Made by a program: the position numbers and the translations under genes. Positions 42,566 through 46,735 of a stretch of 64,000 nucleotides of DNA are shown here, piece after piece. The notes under the pieces were generated by a model that was given only the letters and a program-made list of their open reading frames with translations, made no database searches and was not told where the DNA came from. The DNA is taken from the NCBI RefSeq assembly GCF_030013595.1, contig NZ_CP122768.1; one strand, written 5' to 3'. Position 1 is the first letter of the stretch; each line of letters begins with the position of its first letter. Source of the DNA: Escherichia coli. GTDB taxonomy: Bacteria > Pseudomonadota > Gammaproteobacteria > Enterobacterales > Enterobacteriaceae.

Positions 42566-44152
42566 TTAATGCTCGCGGGTCTGGTGGAACTGAACGTCCG
42601 GATAACGTTCCTGCGCCAGACGCAGGTTGACCATGCTGGTAGCGATGTAAGCGAGGTTATCGCCGCCATCAAGCGCCAGTTGGCTTTCGTTCTTACGCTT
42701 GAACTCTTCGAATTTCTTCGCGTCCGCACATTCTACCCAGCGGGCAGTGGCAACGTTGACTGACTCATACACTGCTTCAACGTTGTATTCGCTCTTCAGG
42801 CGCGCTACCACCACATCAAACTGCAGCACACCAACTGCACCAACGATCAGGTCGTTGTTGGAGATCGGACGGAACACCTGCACCGCGCCCTCTTCGGAAA
42901 GCTGTACCAGCCCTTTGAGCAGCTGTTTTTGCTTCAGCGGATCTTTCAGGCGGATACGACGGAACAGTTCCGGTGCGAAGTTCGGAATACCGGTGAACTT
43001 CATCATCTCCCCCTGGGTAAAGGTGTCACCGATCTGAATAGTGCCGTGGTTGTGCAGGCCGAGGATATCGCCCGGATACGCTTCTTCAACGTGCGAACGG
43101 TCGCCCGCCATAAAGGTCAGCGCGTCGGAGATCACCACATCTTTCGCGGTGCGCACCTGGCGCAGCTTCATGCCTTTTTCATATTTACCGGATACCACGC
43201 GCATAAACGCCACGCGGTCGCGGTGTTTCGGGTCCATGTTGGCCTGAATTTTAAATACGAAGCCGGTAAATTTGTCTTCGCTCGCTTCTACGGTACGGGT
43301 ATCAGTCTGACGCGGCATCGGCGCAGGTGCCCACTCCACCAGGCCATCCAACATATGATCGACGCCGAAGTTACCTAGCGCAGTACCGAAGAATACCGGA
43401 GTGATTTCGCCCGCAAGGAATAATTCTTTGTCGAACTCGTTAGACGCGCCTTTCACCAGTTCCAGTTCGTCACGCAGCTGCTGCGCCAGATCTTCACCAA
43501 CCGCAGCATCGAGATCCGGGTTATTCAGCCCTTTAACAATGCGGACTTCCTGAATGGTGTGGCCTTTACCACTCTGATAAAGATAGGTTTCATCTTTATA
43601 AAGGTGGTAAACGCCTTTAAACAGCTTGCCGCAGCCAATCGGCCAGGTGATCGGCGCACAGCCGATTTTCAGCTCGTTCTCAACTTCATCGAGCAGTTCC
43701 ATCGGGTCGCGGATATCACGGTCAAGTTTGTTCATAAAGGTGAGGATCGGCGTGTCACGCAGACGGGTAACTTCCATCAGCTTGCGGGTACGATCTTCAA
43801 CACCTTTTGCGGCGTCGATAACCATCAGGCAGCAGTCCACCGCCGTCAGGGTACGATAGGTATCTTCCGAGAAGTCTTCGTGCCCCGGGGTGTCGAGCAG
43901 GTTAACCAGGCAATCGTGATACGGAAACTGCATCACAGACGTAGTAATGGAGATCCCACGCTGCTTTTCCATCTCCATCCAGTCCGACTTAGCGTGCTGG
44001 TTGGAACCACGGCCTTTTACTGTACCGGCGGTCTGAATGGCCTGTCCGAACAGCAGCACCTTCTCGGTGATGGTAGTCTTACCGGCGTCTGGGTGAGAAA
44101 TAATTGCAAAGGTTCTTCTTTTCGCTACCTCTGCGGCCAAAAGGCTTGTCAT
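42566..44152 (-). CDS. prfC: Peptide chain release factor 3
   Basis: Translation [40 protein letters not shown] (GTPase G1); track ORF starts at an upstream TTG (44179). Confidence 0.9.
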
Positions 44153-44171
44153 AATTGTTGTCTCGTTGATT

Positions 44172-44288
44172 ATGTACAATCATATGTACAAAGAAAAATT
44201 CATGCCGCTGATTGTACATTTTGGAGGTATCAGAGCATAGCAGAACATGATCAGTAGGTGTATTTGTAGCCAAAGCTCATTTGTACAT
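44172..44288. repeat. Cluster of four TGTACA-core repeats near the prophage-host junction
   Basis: ATGTACAA at 44172-44179 and 44184-44191; inverse TTGTACAT at 44212-44219 and 44281-44288. Confidence 0.35.
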
Positions 44289-44305
44289 GCCGCAATCTTC
44301 GTTCT

Positions 44306-44356
44306 ATTGACACTGTTTATTCACCCAGTTAAAAATAAGACTGTATACAAACACAG
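44306..44356 (+). promoter_or_regulatory. SOS-type promoter with LexA box upstream of the dinI-like gene
   Basis: Consensus -35 TTGACA (44306-44311); CTGT-N8-ACAG box CTGTATACAAACACAG (44341-44356); RBS GAGGG (44361-44365). Confidence 0.6.
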
Positions 44357-44371
44357 TATAGAGGGAATTTT

Positions 44372-44648
44372 ATGCGTATTGAGATCTGCATAGCCAAAGA
44401 GAAAATGACTAAACTGCCAAACAGCGCTGTGGATGCGTTAGAAGGAAGAATTAACCCGACGCACCGGTAAGCGTTATGAAGATGTAGAGGTGATCGTAAA
44501 AGCCACCAGCAATGATGACCTTTCTGTTACACGCACCGCCGATAAAGATTCAGTTAAAATTTTTGTTCAGGACACTCTGAAAGATACCTAGGAATTTGCT
44601 GACGAGTGATTTAGTTCATCATCTCTGGACACAATTCACTTGTATTGA
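44372..44648 (+). pseudogene. dinI-like gene with one frameshift and two stops at Trp positions
   Basis: Frame 1 [23 protein letters not shown] ends at TAA after a 1-nt frame slip near 44441; next frame continues [49 protein letters not shown], then TAG (44589-44591), EFADE, TGA (44607-44609), FSSS; the two stops sit where DinI proteins have the TWESADDWF tryptophans. Confidence 0.65.
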
Positions 44649-44674
44649 CTTTAAGATCATTAAATTGTAATAAT
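44645..44674 (+). promoter_or_regulatory. Candidate sigma-70 promoter for the leader/SLATT/RT transcript
   Basis: -35 TTGACT (44645-44650), 18-nt spacer, extended -10 TGtAATAAT (44666-44674); predicted start near 44681. Confidence 0.45.
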
Positions 44675-44680
44675 TCAAAA

Positions 44681-44815
44681 GGATGGGGCAGTTTTTTCCT
44701 CTTGCGTATGCAAGGGCGGCTCTGATAATGAACAGTAATATTTTACTGTTGAGCTTATGCTCACTGATCCTGCCGAGCAGGATGTTCAACGGTTCCAATA
44801 TATCCTGCCCCTTCC
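44681..44815 (+). ncRNA. Candidate structured leader or ncRNA upstream of the SLATT-RT operon
   Basis: 11-nt inverted repeat GGATGGGGCAG (44681-44691) and CTGCCCCTTCC (44805-44815), 10 of 11 bp, enclosing four hairpins: 44701-44714 (5 bp), 44731-44750 (8 bp), 44751-44762 (4 bp), 44767-44783 (7 bp). Alternative reading is a leaderless 51-codon N-terminal extension from ATG 44683. Confidence 0.35.
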
Positions 44816-44835
44816 GCTTTTTAAAAGGATATTTT

Positions 44836-45387
44836 ATGCATGAAAATATTTGGTTTACATATAAAGCCCGTATTCAAGCGCACCATAGACTAGAATGGCT
44901 TGAAAAACACTCTCAATTTATCCTCGTTTGGTATGCTATATTGAGTGCGGTACTTTCAATTATAACGTTACGATTTCCAAAATTTCTAGGAGATAATACA
45001 GATATCGTTGCGGCAATACTTTCAGTGGCTCTACTGGGTATTTCTCTGATCGTATCTAACCTAGATTATCGTGGTCGAGCAATAGCCATGAGAAGGAATT
45101 ATATTGCACTACAGAGACTCTATTTTGATATTAATAACGGCCAACAGTTAACTCTTGAACAGAAAGAAAAATATTTTAATTTGCTCAATGAGGTTGAGAA
45201 TCATCGTGACATAGATGATAAAGTTTCAAGGGTAACTCAAGTTGGACTTACGACTAGACTCCCCACACAAAAAGAAAAAATAATTGTTAAATTATGGATA
45301 TTACGTCGAATGTTTATTACTGTCGGCCTTTATATCCTCCCATTAATATGTCTTTGGATTGACTATGAATGCAAGCAGAGTTTTTAA
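44836..45387 (+). CDS. SLATT-like multi-TM protein (putative membrane effector)
   Basis: ATG 44836 with RBS AAGGA (44824-44828, 7-nt spacer); 183 aa; two adjacent hydrophobic helices (FILVWYAILSAVLSIITL, IVAAILSVALLGISLIVSNL) flanked by amphipathic helices, plus C-terminal MFITVGLYILPLICLWI; stop 45385-45387 overlaps RT start. Confidence 0.7.
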   Translation: MHENIWFTYKARIQAHHRLEWLEKHSQFILVWYAILSAVLSIITLRFPKFLGDNTDIVAAILSVALLGISLIVSNLDYRGRAIAMRRNYIALQRLYFDINNGQQLTLEQKEKYFNLLNEVENHRDIDDKVSRVTQVGLTTRLPTQKEKIIVKLWILRRMFITVGLYILPLICLWIDYECKQSF

Positions 45388-46735
45388 AAAGTCATTCTCG
45401 AAAAAAAACCTTCTAAAAGTATACAATGAAAAAATCAAAGAATCAGGAGCGATTGGCATAGATCGGATTCGTCCATCAAAACTTGATTTAACAATAAAGA
45501 ATGAGATCACTTTTATTTTTGAAAAGGTTAATTGTGGAAATTATAAATTTACAGCATATAAAGAAAAATTAATATCTAAAGGGGCTAACTCTATCCCCAG
45601 ACAGATTTCCATACCAACTGCCAGGGACAGAATTACCCTTAGGGCTCTCTGTGAATGCCTTACAGAAATATATCCTAACTCCAGATTAAAACTACCACAT
45701 ACAGTAATTGACTTATTGAAAAATGCATTAAACAGCGATCTATATGCTGAATATGCAAAAATAGATCTCAAAAGTTTCTATCCTTCAATTGAACATAAAT
45801 TGATATTTAATGCAATAAAAAATAAGATTAGAAAAAAAGAAATTAGGCAGTTAATAACATCATCATTAATCGTGCCTACTGTAAGTGGAAGTACAGGAAG
45901 CAAAGGTGTCCCTAATAATACCAGAGGAGTACCTCAGGGGTTAGCAATATCAAACATTTTAGCTGAAATATCACTATCTGATTTCGACAATGAAATCAAT
46001 AAAATGCATGACATATGGTACATGCGATACGTTGATGACATTCTTATTTTAACGCAAAAAGATCAAGCAACAAAAATTGCATCTCATATCATTGATAAGC
46101 TTCAATCATTAAATTTAAACCCACATCCATTAAATGAAGAGAACTCAAAATCCAAAGTAGGCAGCTTGGATGAAAGTTTCAACTTTTTGGGCTACCACAT
46201 AAAAAATCGAGAATTATTGATAAAACATGAGAGCATTCTTAGATTTGAGTCATCCTTAGCAAAAATTTTTACTGCATATAGACACGCTCTACTACAAGCT
46301 AAAAATAAGCGCGATAAAGAACGAGCTGTTGCATATTGTCAGTGGAAACTAAATCTTAGAATTACGGGGTGTGTGTTTGAAGGTAAACGATTGGGATGGG
46401 TATCGTACTTCTCACAAATAACGTCAACAGCTCAACTTCGAGCTGTTAATCATACGATCAATAATCTTATCCGCCGATTCGGCCTTTCATCAGAAATAAA
46501 ACCAAAGTCTTTGATTAAAACTTTCTATGAACTCCGCAGGGGTAGAGCGGAGACTTTTAAATACATACCTAACTTTGACAATCTACATATATCTCAGAAA
46601 CGAGAAATTGTTTCTATGTGGATAGGGAAAGAGAATGAAAAAAAACTTAGCAATAGTGAAATAGAGAGAAAATTTAAATTTAAAATTGCGAAATCAGTAA
46701 AAGAGCTTGAAGAGGACATTTCAGGGATATCATAG
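45365..46735 (+). CDS. Reverse transcriptase (RT domain plus ~170-aa C-terminal extension), family unassigned
   Basis: RT motifs in order: GIDRIRPS...IPRQISIPTARDRITLRAL, YAKIDLKSFYPSI, GVPQGLAISNILAEISLSDFD, YMRYVDDILIL (YVDD at 46028-46039), FLGYHI; ATG 45365 (track ORF starts at TTG 45359); AT-rich. Confidence 0.85.
   Translation: MNASRVFKKSFSKKNLLKVYNEKIKESGAIGIDRIRPSKLDLTIKNEITFIFEKVNCGNYKFTAYKEKLISKGANSIPRQISIPTARDRITLRALCECLTEIYPNSRLKLPHTVIDLLKNALNSDLYAEYAKIDLKSFYPSIEHKLIFNAIKNKIRKKEIRQLITSSLIVPTVSGSTGSKGVPNNTRGVPQGLAISNILAEISLSDFDNEINKMHDIWYMRYVDDILILTQKDQATKIASHIIDKLQSLNLNPHPLNEENSKSKVGSLDESFNFLGYHIKNRELLIKHESILRFESSLAKIFTAYRHALLQAKNKRDKERAVAYCQWKLNLRITGCVFEGKRLGWVSYFSQITSTAQLRAVNHTINNLIRRFGLSSEIKPKSLIKTFYELRRGRAETFKYIPNFDNLHISQKREIVSMWIGKENEKKLSNSEIERKFKFKIAKSVKELEEDISGIS

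What the first reader, a model, noticed from the sequence alone, without database searches (positions are those of the whole stretch)
44153..44300. Four TGTACA-core repeats between the prfC start and the prophage accessory region: putative attachment-site arm or operator sites
ATGTACAA occurs twice in direct orientation (44172-44179, 44184-44191) and its complement TTGTACAT twice (44212-44219, 44281-44288), all within 120 bp upstream of prfC. This density and orientation pattern resembles integrase arm-type or repressor binding sites at a prophage end. The prfC N-terminus here reads [13 protein letters not shown], which I believe differs in the first few residues from the K-12 protein, consistent with integration into the 5-prime end of prfC with phage-supplied initial codons. 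prfC is, to my recollection, a known lambdoid integration site.
Basis: inference. Interest (0 to 1): 0.5.

Follow-up and report, generated by a model that had tools for sequence, protein, structure and literature searches.

The report
Integrase arm sites beside prfC
The four TGTACA repeats lie in phage DNA at the right end of a lambda-like prophage inserted in the start of prfC, and are most likely docking ("arm-type") sites for the phage integrase; this is ordinary attachment-site anatomy, although I found no published description of this integrase group's arm motif.

Summary
ATGTACAA/TTGTACAT occurs four times in 44172-44288 and nowhere else in the 64 kb window.

prfC runs on the minus strand, with its ATG at 44152-44150. 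A lambdoid prophage of the cdtI/2H10/Ayreon/Stx1a-Stx2c type is inserted inside it.
- The 14-bp crossover core ATTATTTCTCACCC is at 44091-44104.
- Codons 1-16 (44105-44152) and everything upstream are phage DNA.
- The repeats therefore sit in the int-distal arm of attR.

In the near-identical ETEC-2265 prophage, the other end carries four more TGTACA sites directly upstream of a tyrosine integrase that has an N-terminal arm-DNA-binding domain. Joining the two ends rebuilds an attP that is contiguous in free phage genomes.

Across about 60 integrase relatives in alpha-, beta- and gamma-proteobacteria, TGTACA is about 50-fold enriched in the 125 bp upstream of int, in a fixed layout. Where attP is contiguous, both arms carry a tandem pair. 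Drifted motifs (GTGTCCA, GTACCAAA) change in both arms together.

Best reading: integrase arm-type sites (confidence 0.8), with no binding data. This is a new member of a known kind, of modest interest.

The parts
44091..44104 (-). 14-bp core (crossover) sequence ATTATTTCTCACCC, covering prfC codons 17-21 (I-I-S-H-P)
   Evidence: It is the only block identical in attR (window), attL (ETEC-2265) and attB (K-12). GenBank Stx2c phage record LC727876 annotates the same 14 bp as 'duplication due to insertion'. There is a single copy in the window.
44105..44152 (-). Phage-supplied prfC start codon and codons 1-16 ([16 protein letters not shown]), replacing the native 5' end
   Evidence: It differs from K-12 by an altered N-terminus and by synonymous changes. 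It is identical in the free phage genomes cdtI and 2H10. The displaced native 5' end is retained at attL of ETEC-2265.
42566..44090 (-). Host-derived remainder of prfC (B' side), from codon 21 to the stop
   Evidence: It matches essentially all E. coli genomes at 94-97% identity. PGAP annotates it as prfC in ETEC-2265.
44172..44179 (-). R1: proposed Int arm-type site, TTGTACATAA read in the prfC/int direction; inner member of the tandem pair, 68 bp from the core
   Evidence: Invariant in 7 relatives. It has the same TGTACATAA form as the second site of the conserved int-proximal pair across the clade. Salmonella phage SPN3UB has its variant site at the same 68-bp offset.
44184..44191 (-). R2: proposed Int arm-type site, TTGTACATAT; outer member of the tandem pair, in 12-bp register with R1
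   Evidence: Invariant in 7 relatives. A tandem pair in 12-bp register is seen in both arms of the E. coli-type attP, SPN3UB, HK140 and IMG/VR loci L161 and L184.
44212..44219 (+). R3: proposed Int arm-type site in inverted orientation (TTGTACATTT on the + strand)
   Evidence: Shares 11 nt with R1 as an inverted repeat. Invariant in 7 close relatives. No counterpart was seen in distant relatives.
44281..44288 (+). R4: outermost proposed arm-type site, inverted orientation (TTGTACATGC on the + strand)
   Evidence: Present in cdtI, 2H10, Ayreon and the Stx2c phage; carries a G>A change in E. coli EC147566 and is deleted in the O157:H16 prophage. This is the weakest of the four assignments.
44105..44318 (-). 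Int-distal arm of attP as retained in attR (the 'P arm' in lambda nomenclature); outer limit approximate
   Evidence: The block conserved with phage Ayreon, whose flanking genes are unrelated, begins about 30 bp beyond R4, near window 44318. The reconstructed attP is contiguous in free phages.

Best explanation
The four repeats are arm-type binding sites for the N-terminal arm-binding domain of the prophage's tyrosine integrase. They lie in the int-distal arm of the attachment site, retained as attR next to prfC.

The phage's attP reads, in the prfC/int direction: R4(<-) R3(<-) R2(->) R1(->), a mimic of prfC codons 1-16, the 14-bp core, candidate Xis repeats, L1(->) L2(->) L3(<-) L4, then int.

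The catalytic and core-binding domains of Int act at the core inside prfC. Meanwhile its N-terminal domain holds the TGTACA sites of both arms. By analogy with lambda and Gifsy-1, bending proteins help fold the arms into the intasome.

After integration, the R1-R4 arm stays at the prfC side. It would be needed again, together with the int-proximal arm and an excisionase, for excision. Integration leaves prfC intact because the phage supplies a new start codon, 16 codons and the upstream sequence.

Shown: the junction anatomy, the core, the two-arm motif distribution, the Int domain content and the conservation across the clade. Inferred: that Int is the protein that binds, and which sites serve integration and which serve excision.
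For: (1) Location. K-12 homology breaks down within the first 21 codons. The 14-bp core is shared by attR, attL and attB, and K-12's upstream region has no TGTACA.

(2) attP reconstruction. Joining the window's attR arm to ETEC-2265's attL arm gives a 619-nt sequence that is contiguous at 94.8-96.4% identity in the free phages 2H10 and cdtI, and over 84% of its length in Ayreon. Stx phage records annotate the same 14-bp duplication.

(3) The same motif is in the other arm. Four TGTACA sites lie at -66, -54, -45 and -15 from the int ATG. They include a tandem pair CTGTACATATGCTTGTACATAA that mirrors R2-R1 (TTGTACATATGATTGTACATAA) and sits 264 bp from it.

(4) The integrase has a Pfam Arm-DNA-bind_3 domain at residues 3-90 (E 5e-16), plus central and catalytic domains.

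(5) Clade-wide footprint. In 62 int loci (33-98% identity) from alpha-, beta- and gamma-proteobacteria, TGTACA occurs at 4.77/kb in the 350 bp upstream of int. The rate is 0.10/kb in int plus downstream sequence and 0.06/kb further upstream. Nearly all sites fall within -125 to -1, as a 12-bp tandem pair plus a third site. In five enterobacterial relatives the invariant columns outside the core are concentrated in the TGTACA sites.

(6) The two arms change together. SPN3UB (lepA target) uses GTGTCCA in both arms, HK140 uses GTACCA in both arms, and IMG/VR loci L161 and L184 use GTGTACA pairs 262 bp apart.

(7) R1-R3 are invariant in 7 relatives, and the block conserved with Ayreon ends just beyond R4.
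Against: - There are no binding or recombination data for this integrase. I found no published arm-site description for it or for Gifsy-1 Int; PMC2603039 says only the Xis sites were characterised.
- A 6-bp palindromic core is more typical of dimeric helix-turn-helix proteins than of monomeric arm-binding domains.
- Evidence for the int-distal arm, which is where the finding lies, rests on near-identical E. coli phages plus three distant lineages. The large comparative set covers only the int-proximal arm.
- R3 and R4 have no counterparts in distant relatives. R4 is mutated in one prophage and deleted in another.
- No strict IHF consensus lies in the arm.
- The int-proximal cluster sits where an int promoter or operator would be. 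Conservation there could partly reflect transcriptional control.
Confidence: 0.8

Rival explanations
1. The repeats are primarily transcriptional elements. On this reading they form a phage-supplied promoter/operator for the rebuilt prfC, and in the other arm for int. They would be bound by RNA polymerase and by Int or another regulator. This does not exclude arm-site function.
For: Integration displaces the native prfC promoter, so some phage sequence in 44153-44372 must drive prfC. R2-R1 lie 20-39 bp upstream of the new ATG. The best promoter-like matches on the prfC strand overlap them: TTTTCT-17-CATAAT and GCGGCA-18-TATGAT, each 8/12. The same pair module sits upstream of int. In KplE1 and P4, arm-type sites that overlap the int promoter cause autoregulation (PMC2951348).
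Against: No site on the prfC strand reaches the scan threshold of 9/12. The -35 matches are poor. R3 and R4 lie 60-136 bp upstream of the ATG, where they have no obvious promoter role. The two-arm geometry around a recombination core is what recombination predicts, not what promoters predict.
Confidence: 0.12
2. The repeats bind a different element-encoded protein, such as the excisionase (recombination directionality factor), the prophage repressor or an antirepressor, rather than Int.
For: The palindromic TGTACA core would suit a dimeric DNA-binding protein. Excisionases bind repeated sites within att arms; Gifsy-1 Xis has a tripartite site (PMC2603039).
Against: Int is the only gene that consistently accompanies the motif across about 60 elements, which include ICE-like and phage-like contexts in three proteobacterial classes. 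A separate set of direct imperfect repeats (CATGTAACTT, 3-4 copies) in the int-proximal arm fits the Xis pattern better. Immunity regions of these mosaic phages differ while the att module stays constant.
Confidence: 0.06
3. The repeats are native E. coli prfC promoter or regulatory elements, or a chance cluster in AT-rich DNA.
For: The region is AT-rich (37% GC over 44105-44372), which favours A/T-rich words.
Against: K-12's prfC upstream region shares no similarity with this stretch and has no TGTACA in 3.2 kb. The sequence is phage DNA, present in free phage genomes. The expected number of such clusters is about 6e-9 per window. The motif recurs in unrelated hosts next to int.
Confidence: 0.01

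Closest known systems
Lambdoid phages integrating at prfC: CDT-I phage cdtI (AB285204), 2H10, Ayreon, and the Stx1a/Stx2c phages of E. coli CC119
   Same: The attP sequence is 95-96% identical, including all eight TGTACA sites at the same positions. They share the 14-bp duplication and the integrase (97-98% identity to Ayreon, PhiR63_1 and the Stx phages). About 12% of complete E. coli genomes (637 of 5,426) carry this junction.
   Different: The cargo next to the arm differs. Here it is a frameshifted dinI-like gene plus a SLATT/reverse-transcriptase cassette, where cdtI carries cdtABC. None of the records or papers I could read annotates the arm sites.
[quoted passage not shown]
   Same: The target gene end is the same (PMC4344509, PMC5812530). 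From my own recollection of Hochhut & Waldor 1999, which I could not read here, SXT also supplies a replacement 5' end for prfC. The cdtI phage integrase is placed in the 'SXT cluster' of the IntSXT subgroup, defined by the DUF4102 (Arm-DNA-bind_3) N-terminal domain (PMC8138268). That domain is present here.
   Different: This is a lambdoid phage, not a conjugative element. In SXT, int expression depends on SetCD (PMC4344509). I did not verify which of my related loci are SXT/R391, and I did not examine SXT's own attP.
Gifsy-1 / SPN3UB-type Salmonella phages integrating in lepA
   Same: The integrase is related (46.6% identity). There is a 14-bp core in the 5' coding region of a translational GTPase gene, and the phage supplies the first codons (PMC2603039). 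A tandem site pair lies 68 bp from the core in the int-distal arm, and there are four sites upstream of int. Gifsy-1 recombination needs Int, IHF and Xis (PMC2603039).
   Different: The target is lepA, not prfC. The arm motif is GTGTCCAY instead of TTGTACAT. The spacing on the int-proximal side is 30 bp shorter.
KplE1 (IntS/TorI), HK620 and P4 recombination modules
   Same: int is transcribed away from attL, so arm-type sites overlap the int promoter region. [quoted passage not shown]
   Different: Those elements target tRNA genes and use other motifs. Autoregulation has been shown there and is only inferred here. The finding concerns the opposite arm (attR).
Bacteriophage lambda attP (P1, P2, P'1-P'3 arm-type sites)
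   Same: A heterobivalent integrase, with repeated arm sites in both arms in mixed orientation, distinct from the core.
   Different: The arm-binding domain belongs to a different family. The attP is much larger here (about 470 bp from R4 to int, against 240 bp). In lambda, int points towards att; here it points away. The core lies inside a protein-coding gene whose 5' end the phage replaces.

Membership tests
attR of a cdtI/2H10-type lambdoid prophage integrated in prfC | The left part of attR plus the right part of attL rebuild an attP that is contiguous in free phage genomes | tested here: met
   The 619-nt reconstruction matches 2H10 (96.4%) and cdtI (94.8%) over 100% of its length, and Ayreon over 84%.
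attR of a cdtI/2H10-type lambdoid prophage integrated in prfC | A short core shared by attB, attL and attR, duplicated at both prophage ends | tested here: met
   ATTATTTCTCACCC is in the window at 44091-44104, in ETEC-2265 attL and in K-12 attB. It is annotated as an insertion duplication in LC727876. The window itself holds only one copy; the other end is outside it.
attR of a cdtI/2H10-type lambdoid prophage integrated in prfC | A tyrosine integrase gene at the other prophage end | tested here: met
   This was shown in the near-identical ETEC-2265 prophage, where int lies 228 bp from the core next to yjjG and a prfC 5' remnant. It cannot be tested for the window's own genome.
Arm-type sites of a heterobivalent tyrosine integrase | The integrase carries a separate N-terminal arm-DNA-binding domain | tested here: met
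   Pfam Arm-DNA-bind_3 (PF13356), residues 3-90, E 5.1e-16.
Arm-type sites of a heterobivalent tyrosine integrase | A repeated motif, distinct from the core, on both sides of the core in attP | tested here: met
   Four sites lie in each arm, with tandem pairs at -330/-318 and -66/-54 relative to the int ATG. The core is at -244 to -231.
Arm-type sites of a heterobivalent tyrosine integrase | The motif tracks the integrase lineage rather than the host, and changes in both arms together | tested here: met
   TGTACA is about 50-fold enriched upstream of int in 62 loci across three proteobacterial classes. The variants GTGTCCA (SPN3UB) and GTACCA (HK140) are each present in both arms.
Arm-type sites of a heterobivalent tyrosine integrase | Int physically binds the sites, and the sites are required for recombination | not testable with these tools
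   This needs gel-shift or footprinting and recombination assays with mutated sites.
IntSXT subgroup, SXT cluster (prfC-targeting integrases) | N-terminal DUF4102/Arm-DNA-bind_3 domain and insertion in the 5' end of prfC | tested here: met
   Native prfC remnants ending in [10 protein letters not shown] lie 199-238 bp upstream of int in most relatives.
IntSXT subgroup, SXT cluster (prfC-targeting integrases) | Phylogenetic grouping with IntSXT itself | not tested
   This rests on PMC8138268, which places the cdtI phage integrase there. I made no direct comparison with IntSXT.
Sigma-70 promoter for the rebuilt prfC | -35/-10 hexamers with at least 9 of 12 matches at 16-18 nt spacing on the prfC strand | tested here: not met
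   There is none on the minus strand in 44000-44700. The best are 8/12 and overlap R1/R2.
LexA (SOS) operator | CTGT-N8-ACAG palindrome | tested here: not met
   The TGTACA sites do not fit the pattern. The only LexA-box-like sequence is at 44339-44358, upstream of the dinI-like gene.

The most novel reading that the evidence does not exclude
The tandem arm-site pair R2-R1, placed 20-39 bp upstream of the phage-supplied prfC start codon, may double as a weak promoter/operator. It is identical in form to the pair upstream of int. If so, integrase occupancy would set RF3 expression in lysogens. The phage would then not merely repair prfC but bring a translation-termination factor under its own recombination protein's control, in about 12% of complete E. 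coli genomes.
Probability: 0.1. Interest if true: 0.55.

Novelty: new member of a known kind. Interest (0 to 1): 0.3.

Why it matters
- It fixes the real boundary of a very common E. coli prophage family, which includes CDT- and Shiga-toxin-converting phages. The boundary is a 14-bp core inside prfC.
- It shows that prfC is rebuilt rather than disrupted. One comparative study (PMC3603311) listed prfC among genes disrupted by phage integration.
- It gives a testable arm-site motif and geometry for a large integrase clade: a GTAC-core site in tandem pairs with 12-bp register in both arms, with the pairs about 234-264 bp apart. This clade includes the medically important SXT/R391 group. The motif could sharpen att-site prediction and guide engineering of these integrases.
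- It is not surprising in kind. Heterobivalent integrases are expected to have arm sites.

Tried and rejected
- Native prfC promoter elements: rejected, because K-12's upstream region is unrelated and has no TGTACA.
- LexA operator: rejected, because the pattern does not fit. The real LexA-like box is at 44339-44358.
- Strong sigma-70 promoter on the prfC strand: none found. A relaxed scan gives only 8/12 matches.
- IHF consensus WATCARNNNNTTR: no match in the att region. This is uninformative, because IHF sites are degenerate.
- The first viral-contig search with the integrase returned only 97-99% identical relatives, which are useless for footprinting. I replaced it with a genome-contig scan using a three-sequence alignment and a DNA-pattern scan of viral contigs. 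In the pattern scan, 14 of the 80 loci examined had an int homologue adjacent; I did not examine the other 66, many of which are probably chance matches.
- HK140 and Stx2 phage 86 were intended as negative controls at about 32-33% integrase identity. They were not negative: they show the same two-arm layout with drifted motifs.
- An ungapped window versus ETEC-2265 comparison over 40 kb was meaningless because of indels.
- Literature: Asakura 2007 and Burrus & Waldor 2003 are not held. A full-text search for TGTACA with attP and integrase listed nothing relevant among the top 15 of 138 hits, which were mostly transgenesis and cloning papers.

Full report
**Observation.** The sequence is as described. 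ATGTACAA is at 44172-44179 and 44184-44191, and its complement TTGTACAT is at 44212-44219 and 44281-44288. These are the only four matches to the 8-mer on either strand in 64 kb, where shuffles give 1.53. They are also 4 of the 9 TGTACA hexamers in the window. A Poisson estimate for such a cluster is about 6e-9 per window. The repeats extend beyond the 8-mer: R1 and R3 share 11 nt, and R2 and R4 share 9 nt. prfC is on the minus strand and its ATG is at 44152-44150, which corresponds to the start codon PGAP annotates in ETEC-2265.

**Where the junction is.**
- Nearly all complete E. coli genomes match the prfC body. K-12-type genomes stop matching at window 44132, while 637 of 5,426 genomes match through the repeats into the dinI-like gene.
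- A base-level alignment with K-12 shows that the window differs from the ATG down to 44090. The N-terminus is altered ([13 protein letters not shown] against MTLSPYLQEVAKRR), followed by a run of synonymous changes. Beyond that the two are identical. K-12's upstream region is unrelated and has no TGTACA in 3.2 kb.
- The genome of ETEC-2265 is 99.9% identical to the window over the 801-nt query. There the prophage runs about 45 kb from prfC to yjjG. Next to yjjG are the displaced native prfC start (23 codons), a 228-bp spacer and a 407-aa tyrosine integrase transcribed away from the junction.
- Comparing attR, attL and attB leaves one shared block, ATTATTTCTCACCC, at window 44091-44104, which covers prfC codons 17-21. 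The window holds only this one copy, so the other prophage end and int are outside it.

**Proof that this is an attachment site.** I joined the window's phage-side sequence to the core and to the ETEC-2265 attL phage-side sequence. This 619-nt reconstruction is contiguous in the free phage genomes 2H10 (96.4%) and cdtI (94.8%), and over 84% of its length in Ayreon. It also matches both ends of Stx1a- and Stx2c-converting prophage records. One of those records annotates exactly the same 14 bp as the 'duplication due to insertion'. The literature lists prfC as an integration site of Stx phages (PMC8065619), including long-tailed Stx1a/Stx2c phages (PMC10132054). It also places the cdtI phage integrase with SXT-type integrases, which all insert at prfC (PMC8138268). 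So 44105-44152 (prfC codons 1-16) and everything upstream, including the four repeats, is phage DNA. prfC is rebuilt, not destroyed.

**What the repeats are.**
- The other arm of attP carries the same motif. TGTACA lies at -66, -54, -45 and -15 from the int ATG, and the window's sites map to -427, -358, -330 and -318.
- Each arm has a tandem pair in 12-bp register and the same orientation: TTGTACATATGATTGTACATAA in the window and CTGTACATATGCTTGTACATAA next to int. The two pairs are 264 bp apart with the core between them.
- Reading the asymmetric consensus TTGTACAT(A/T), the order is R4(<-) R3(<-) R2(->) R1(->), prfC' and core, then L1(->) L2(->) L3(<-) L4 (a palindrome), then int.
- The integrase has an N-terminal Arm-DNA-bind_3 domain (PF13356, E 5e-16) ahead of the central and catalytic domains. 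It is therefore expected to bind arm sites distinct from the core.

**Comparative test.**
- A scan of one genome per species with an alignment of three integrases returned 66 loci at 33-98% identity. They come from Enterobacterales, Pseudomonas, Acinetobacter, Shewanella, Marinobacterium, Burkholderiaceae, Micavibrio and others.
- In most of them a native prfC remnant ending in [10 protein letters not shown] stops 199-238 bp upstream of int. In a second group the remnant is the lepA start, MKNIRNFSIIAHID, at about -210.
- Over 62 loci, TGTACA occurs at 4.77/kb in the 350 bp upstream of int, against 0.10/kb in int and downstream and 0.06/kb further upstream. Nearly all sites lie between -125 and -1.
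- The layout is constant: a tandem pair TGTACAnnnnnnTGTACATAA around -75 to -50, and an inverted third site near -25.
- Among five enterobacterial relatives (57-100% integrase identity), the spacer between core and int is otherwise unalignable, yet the second site of the pair and the site nearest int are invariant.
- The enterobacterial lepA group uses GTGTCCA instead.

**Evidence for the int-distal arm, where the finding lies.** This arm can be examined only where attP is contiguous.
- In Salmonella phage SPN3UB (46.6% integrase identity, lepA target), the variant motif appears in both arms. Its int-distal pair sits 68 bp from the core, the same offset as R1.
- In two IMG/VR phage contigs (37% identity), GTGTACA pairs lie at -339/-327 and -77/-65, which is 262 bp apart.
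- In HK140 (33% identity), GTACCA pairs lie at -301/-289 and -50/-39, flanking the annotated putative attP. There are no other copies in the locus.
- So the motif drifts with the integrase but always changes in both arms together. That is what binding by one element-encoded protein predicts.
- Among seven close relatives, R1-R3 are invariant. R4 carries a G>A change in one prophage and is deleted in another. The block shared with Ayreon, whose neighbouring genes are unrelated, ends about 30 bp beyond R4, which marks the outer edge of the conserved att module near 44318.

**Mechanism.** The best-supported reading is that R1-R4 are arm-type sites of the integrase (confidence 0.8).
- Shown: the junction, the core, the phage origin of the repeats, the two-arm distribution, the domain content of Int and the conservation across the clade.
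- Inferred from lambda, KplE1 and Gifsy-1 (PMC2951348, PMC2603039): the N-terminal domain of Int holds these sites while the C-terminal domains cut and rejoin at the core. Host bending proteins and an excisionase shape the complex. The attR arm is needed for excision.
- Confidence is highest for R1 and R2, good for R3 and moderate for R4.

**Rival readings.**
- Promoter/operator role. The phage must provide some promoter for prfC, and the best candidates on that strand overlap R1/R2. However, they reach only 8 of 12 consensus positions. A dual role is possible and is my 'novel case'.
- Another binding protein (Xis or repressor). This is less likely, because int is the only constant neighbour of the motif. 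A separate set of CATGTAACTT repeats in the int-proximal arm fits the tripartite Xis pattern described for Gifsy-1 better (PMC2603039).
- Native prfC elements and chance are both excluded.

**Novelty.** Integration of lambdoid phages at prfC and the 14-bp duplication are already on record. I found no description of the arm sites of this integrase group in the literature I could search. PMC2603039 states that for Gifsy-1 only the Xis sites had been characterised. I therefore file this as a new member of a known kind. The finding is correct and well explained, and it yields a useful clade-wide motif and geometry, but it is not surprising in principle.

Noticed in passing
window 44307-44592: A promoter-like site (TTGACA-18-AAAAAT, 44307-44336) is followed by a LexA-box-like sequence, GACTGTATACAAACACAGTA, at 44339-44358. 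That is the only such site in the 64 kb. Next comes a frameshifted DinI-like gene (44373-44592), divergent from prfC. Relatives such as EC147566 and 2H10 have an intact 249-nt dinI-like gene.
   Followed up: partly
window 44683-46735: A two-gene cassette lies between the dinI-like gene and the tail-fibre assembly gene. It encodes a SLATT-domain protein (PADLOC RTasSLATT, E 2e-57) and a reverse transcriptase (PADLOC RT_UG17, E 8e-159), at 34% GC. This looks like a candidate DRT-class anti-phage defence moron. In cdtI the same position carries cdtABC.
   Followed up: partly
window 44267-44275 and 44391-44399; L155: A 9-bp direct repeat, TAGCCAAAG, brackets exactly the 124-bp segment missing in E. 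coli O157:H16 Res13-Lact-PEA12-26. The likely repeat-mediated deletion removes R4, the LexA box and the dinI start. That prophage also carries an IS1 nearby.
   Followed up: partly
L089-L153, L087 (about 200-240 bp upstream of int): This integrase clade crosses over at the same codons of two paralogous translational GTPase genes: prfC (...[10 protein letters not shown]) and lepA (MKNIRNFSIIAHID). These are in the region encoding the start of the G1/P-loop. Acinetobacter johnsonii has a lepA-targeting member that keeps the TGTACA arm motif. Other members (IMG/VR loci L172, L207, L214) sit at a different, unidentified site.
   Followed up: partly
L003 21198-21285 (ETEC-2265 attL, outside the window): There are three to four direct imperfect repeats (TCATGTAACTTA, TTATGTGACTTC, TCATGTAACTTT, CAGGTTACTTTC) between the core and the int-proximal TGTACA sites. 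By analogy with the tripartite Gifsy-1 Xis site, these are candidate excisionase sites. I did not identify an xis gene.
   Followed up: no
window 44105-44152: The phage-supplied RF3 N-terminus ([16 protein letters not shown]) matches the Pseudomonas-type native N-termini seen in related loci (…[17 protein letters not shown]) better than the E. coli one (…YLQEVAKRR). It also uses different synonymous codons from E. coli prfC. This hints that the mimic was captured from, or evolved in, another host.
   Followed up: no
window 44089-44096 and 44321-44328: An 8-nt inverted repeat, CTGGGTGA / TCACCCAG, links the core's edge with the outer end of the arm. About one such match is expected by chance in 400 bp, so it is probably not meaningful.
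   Followed up: no
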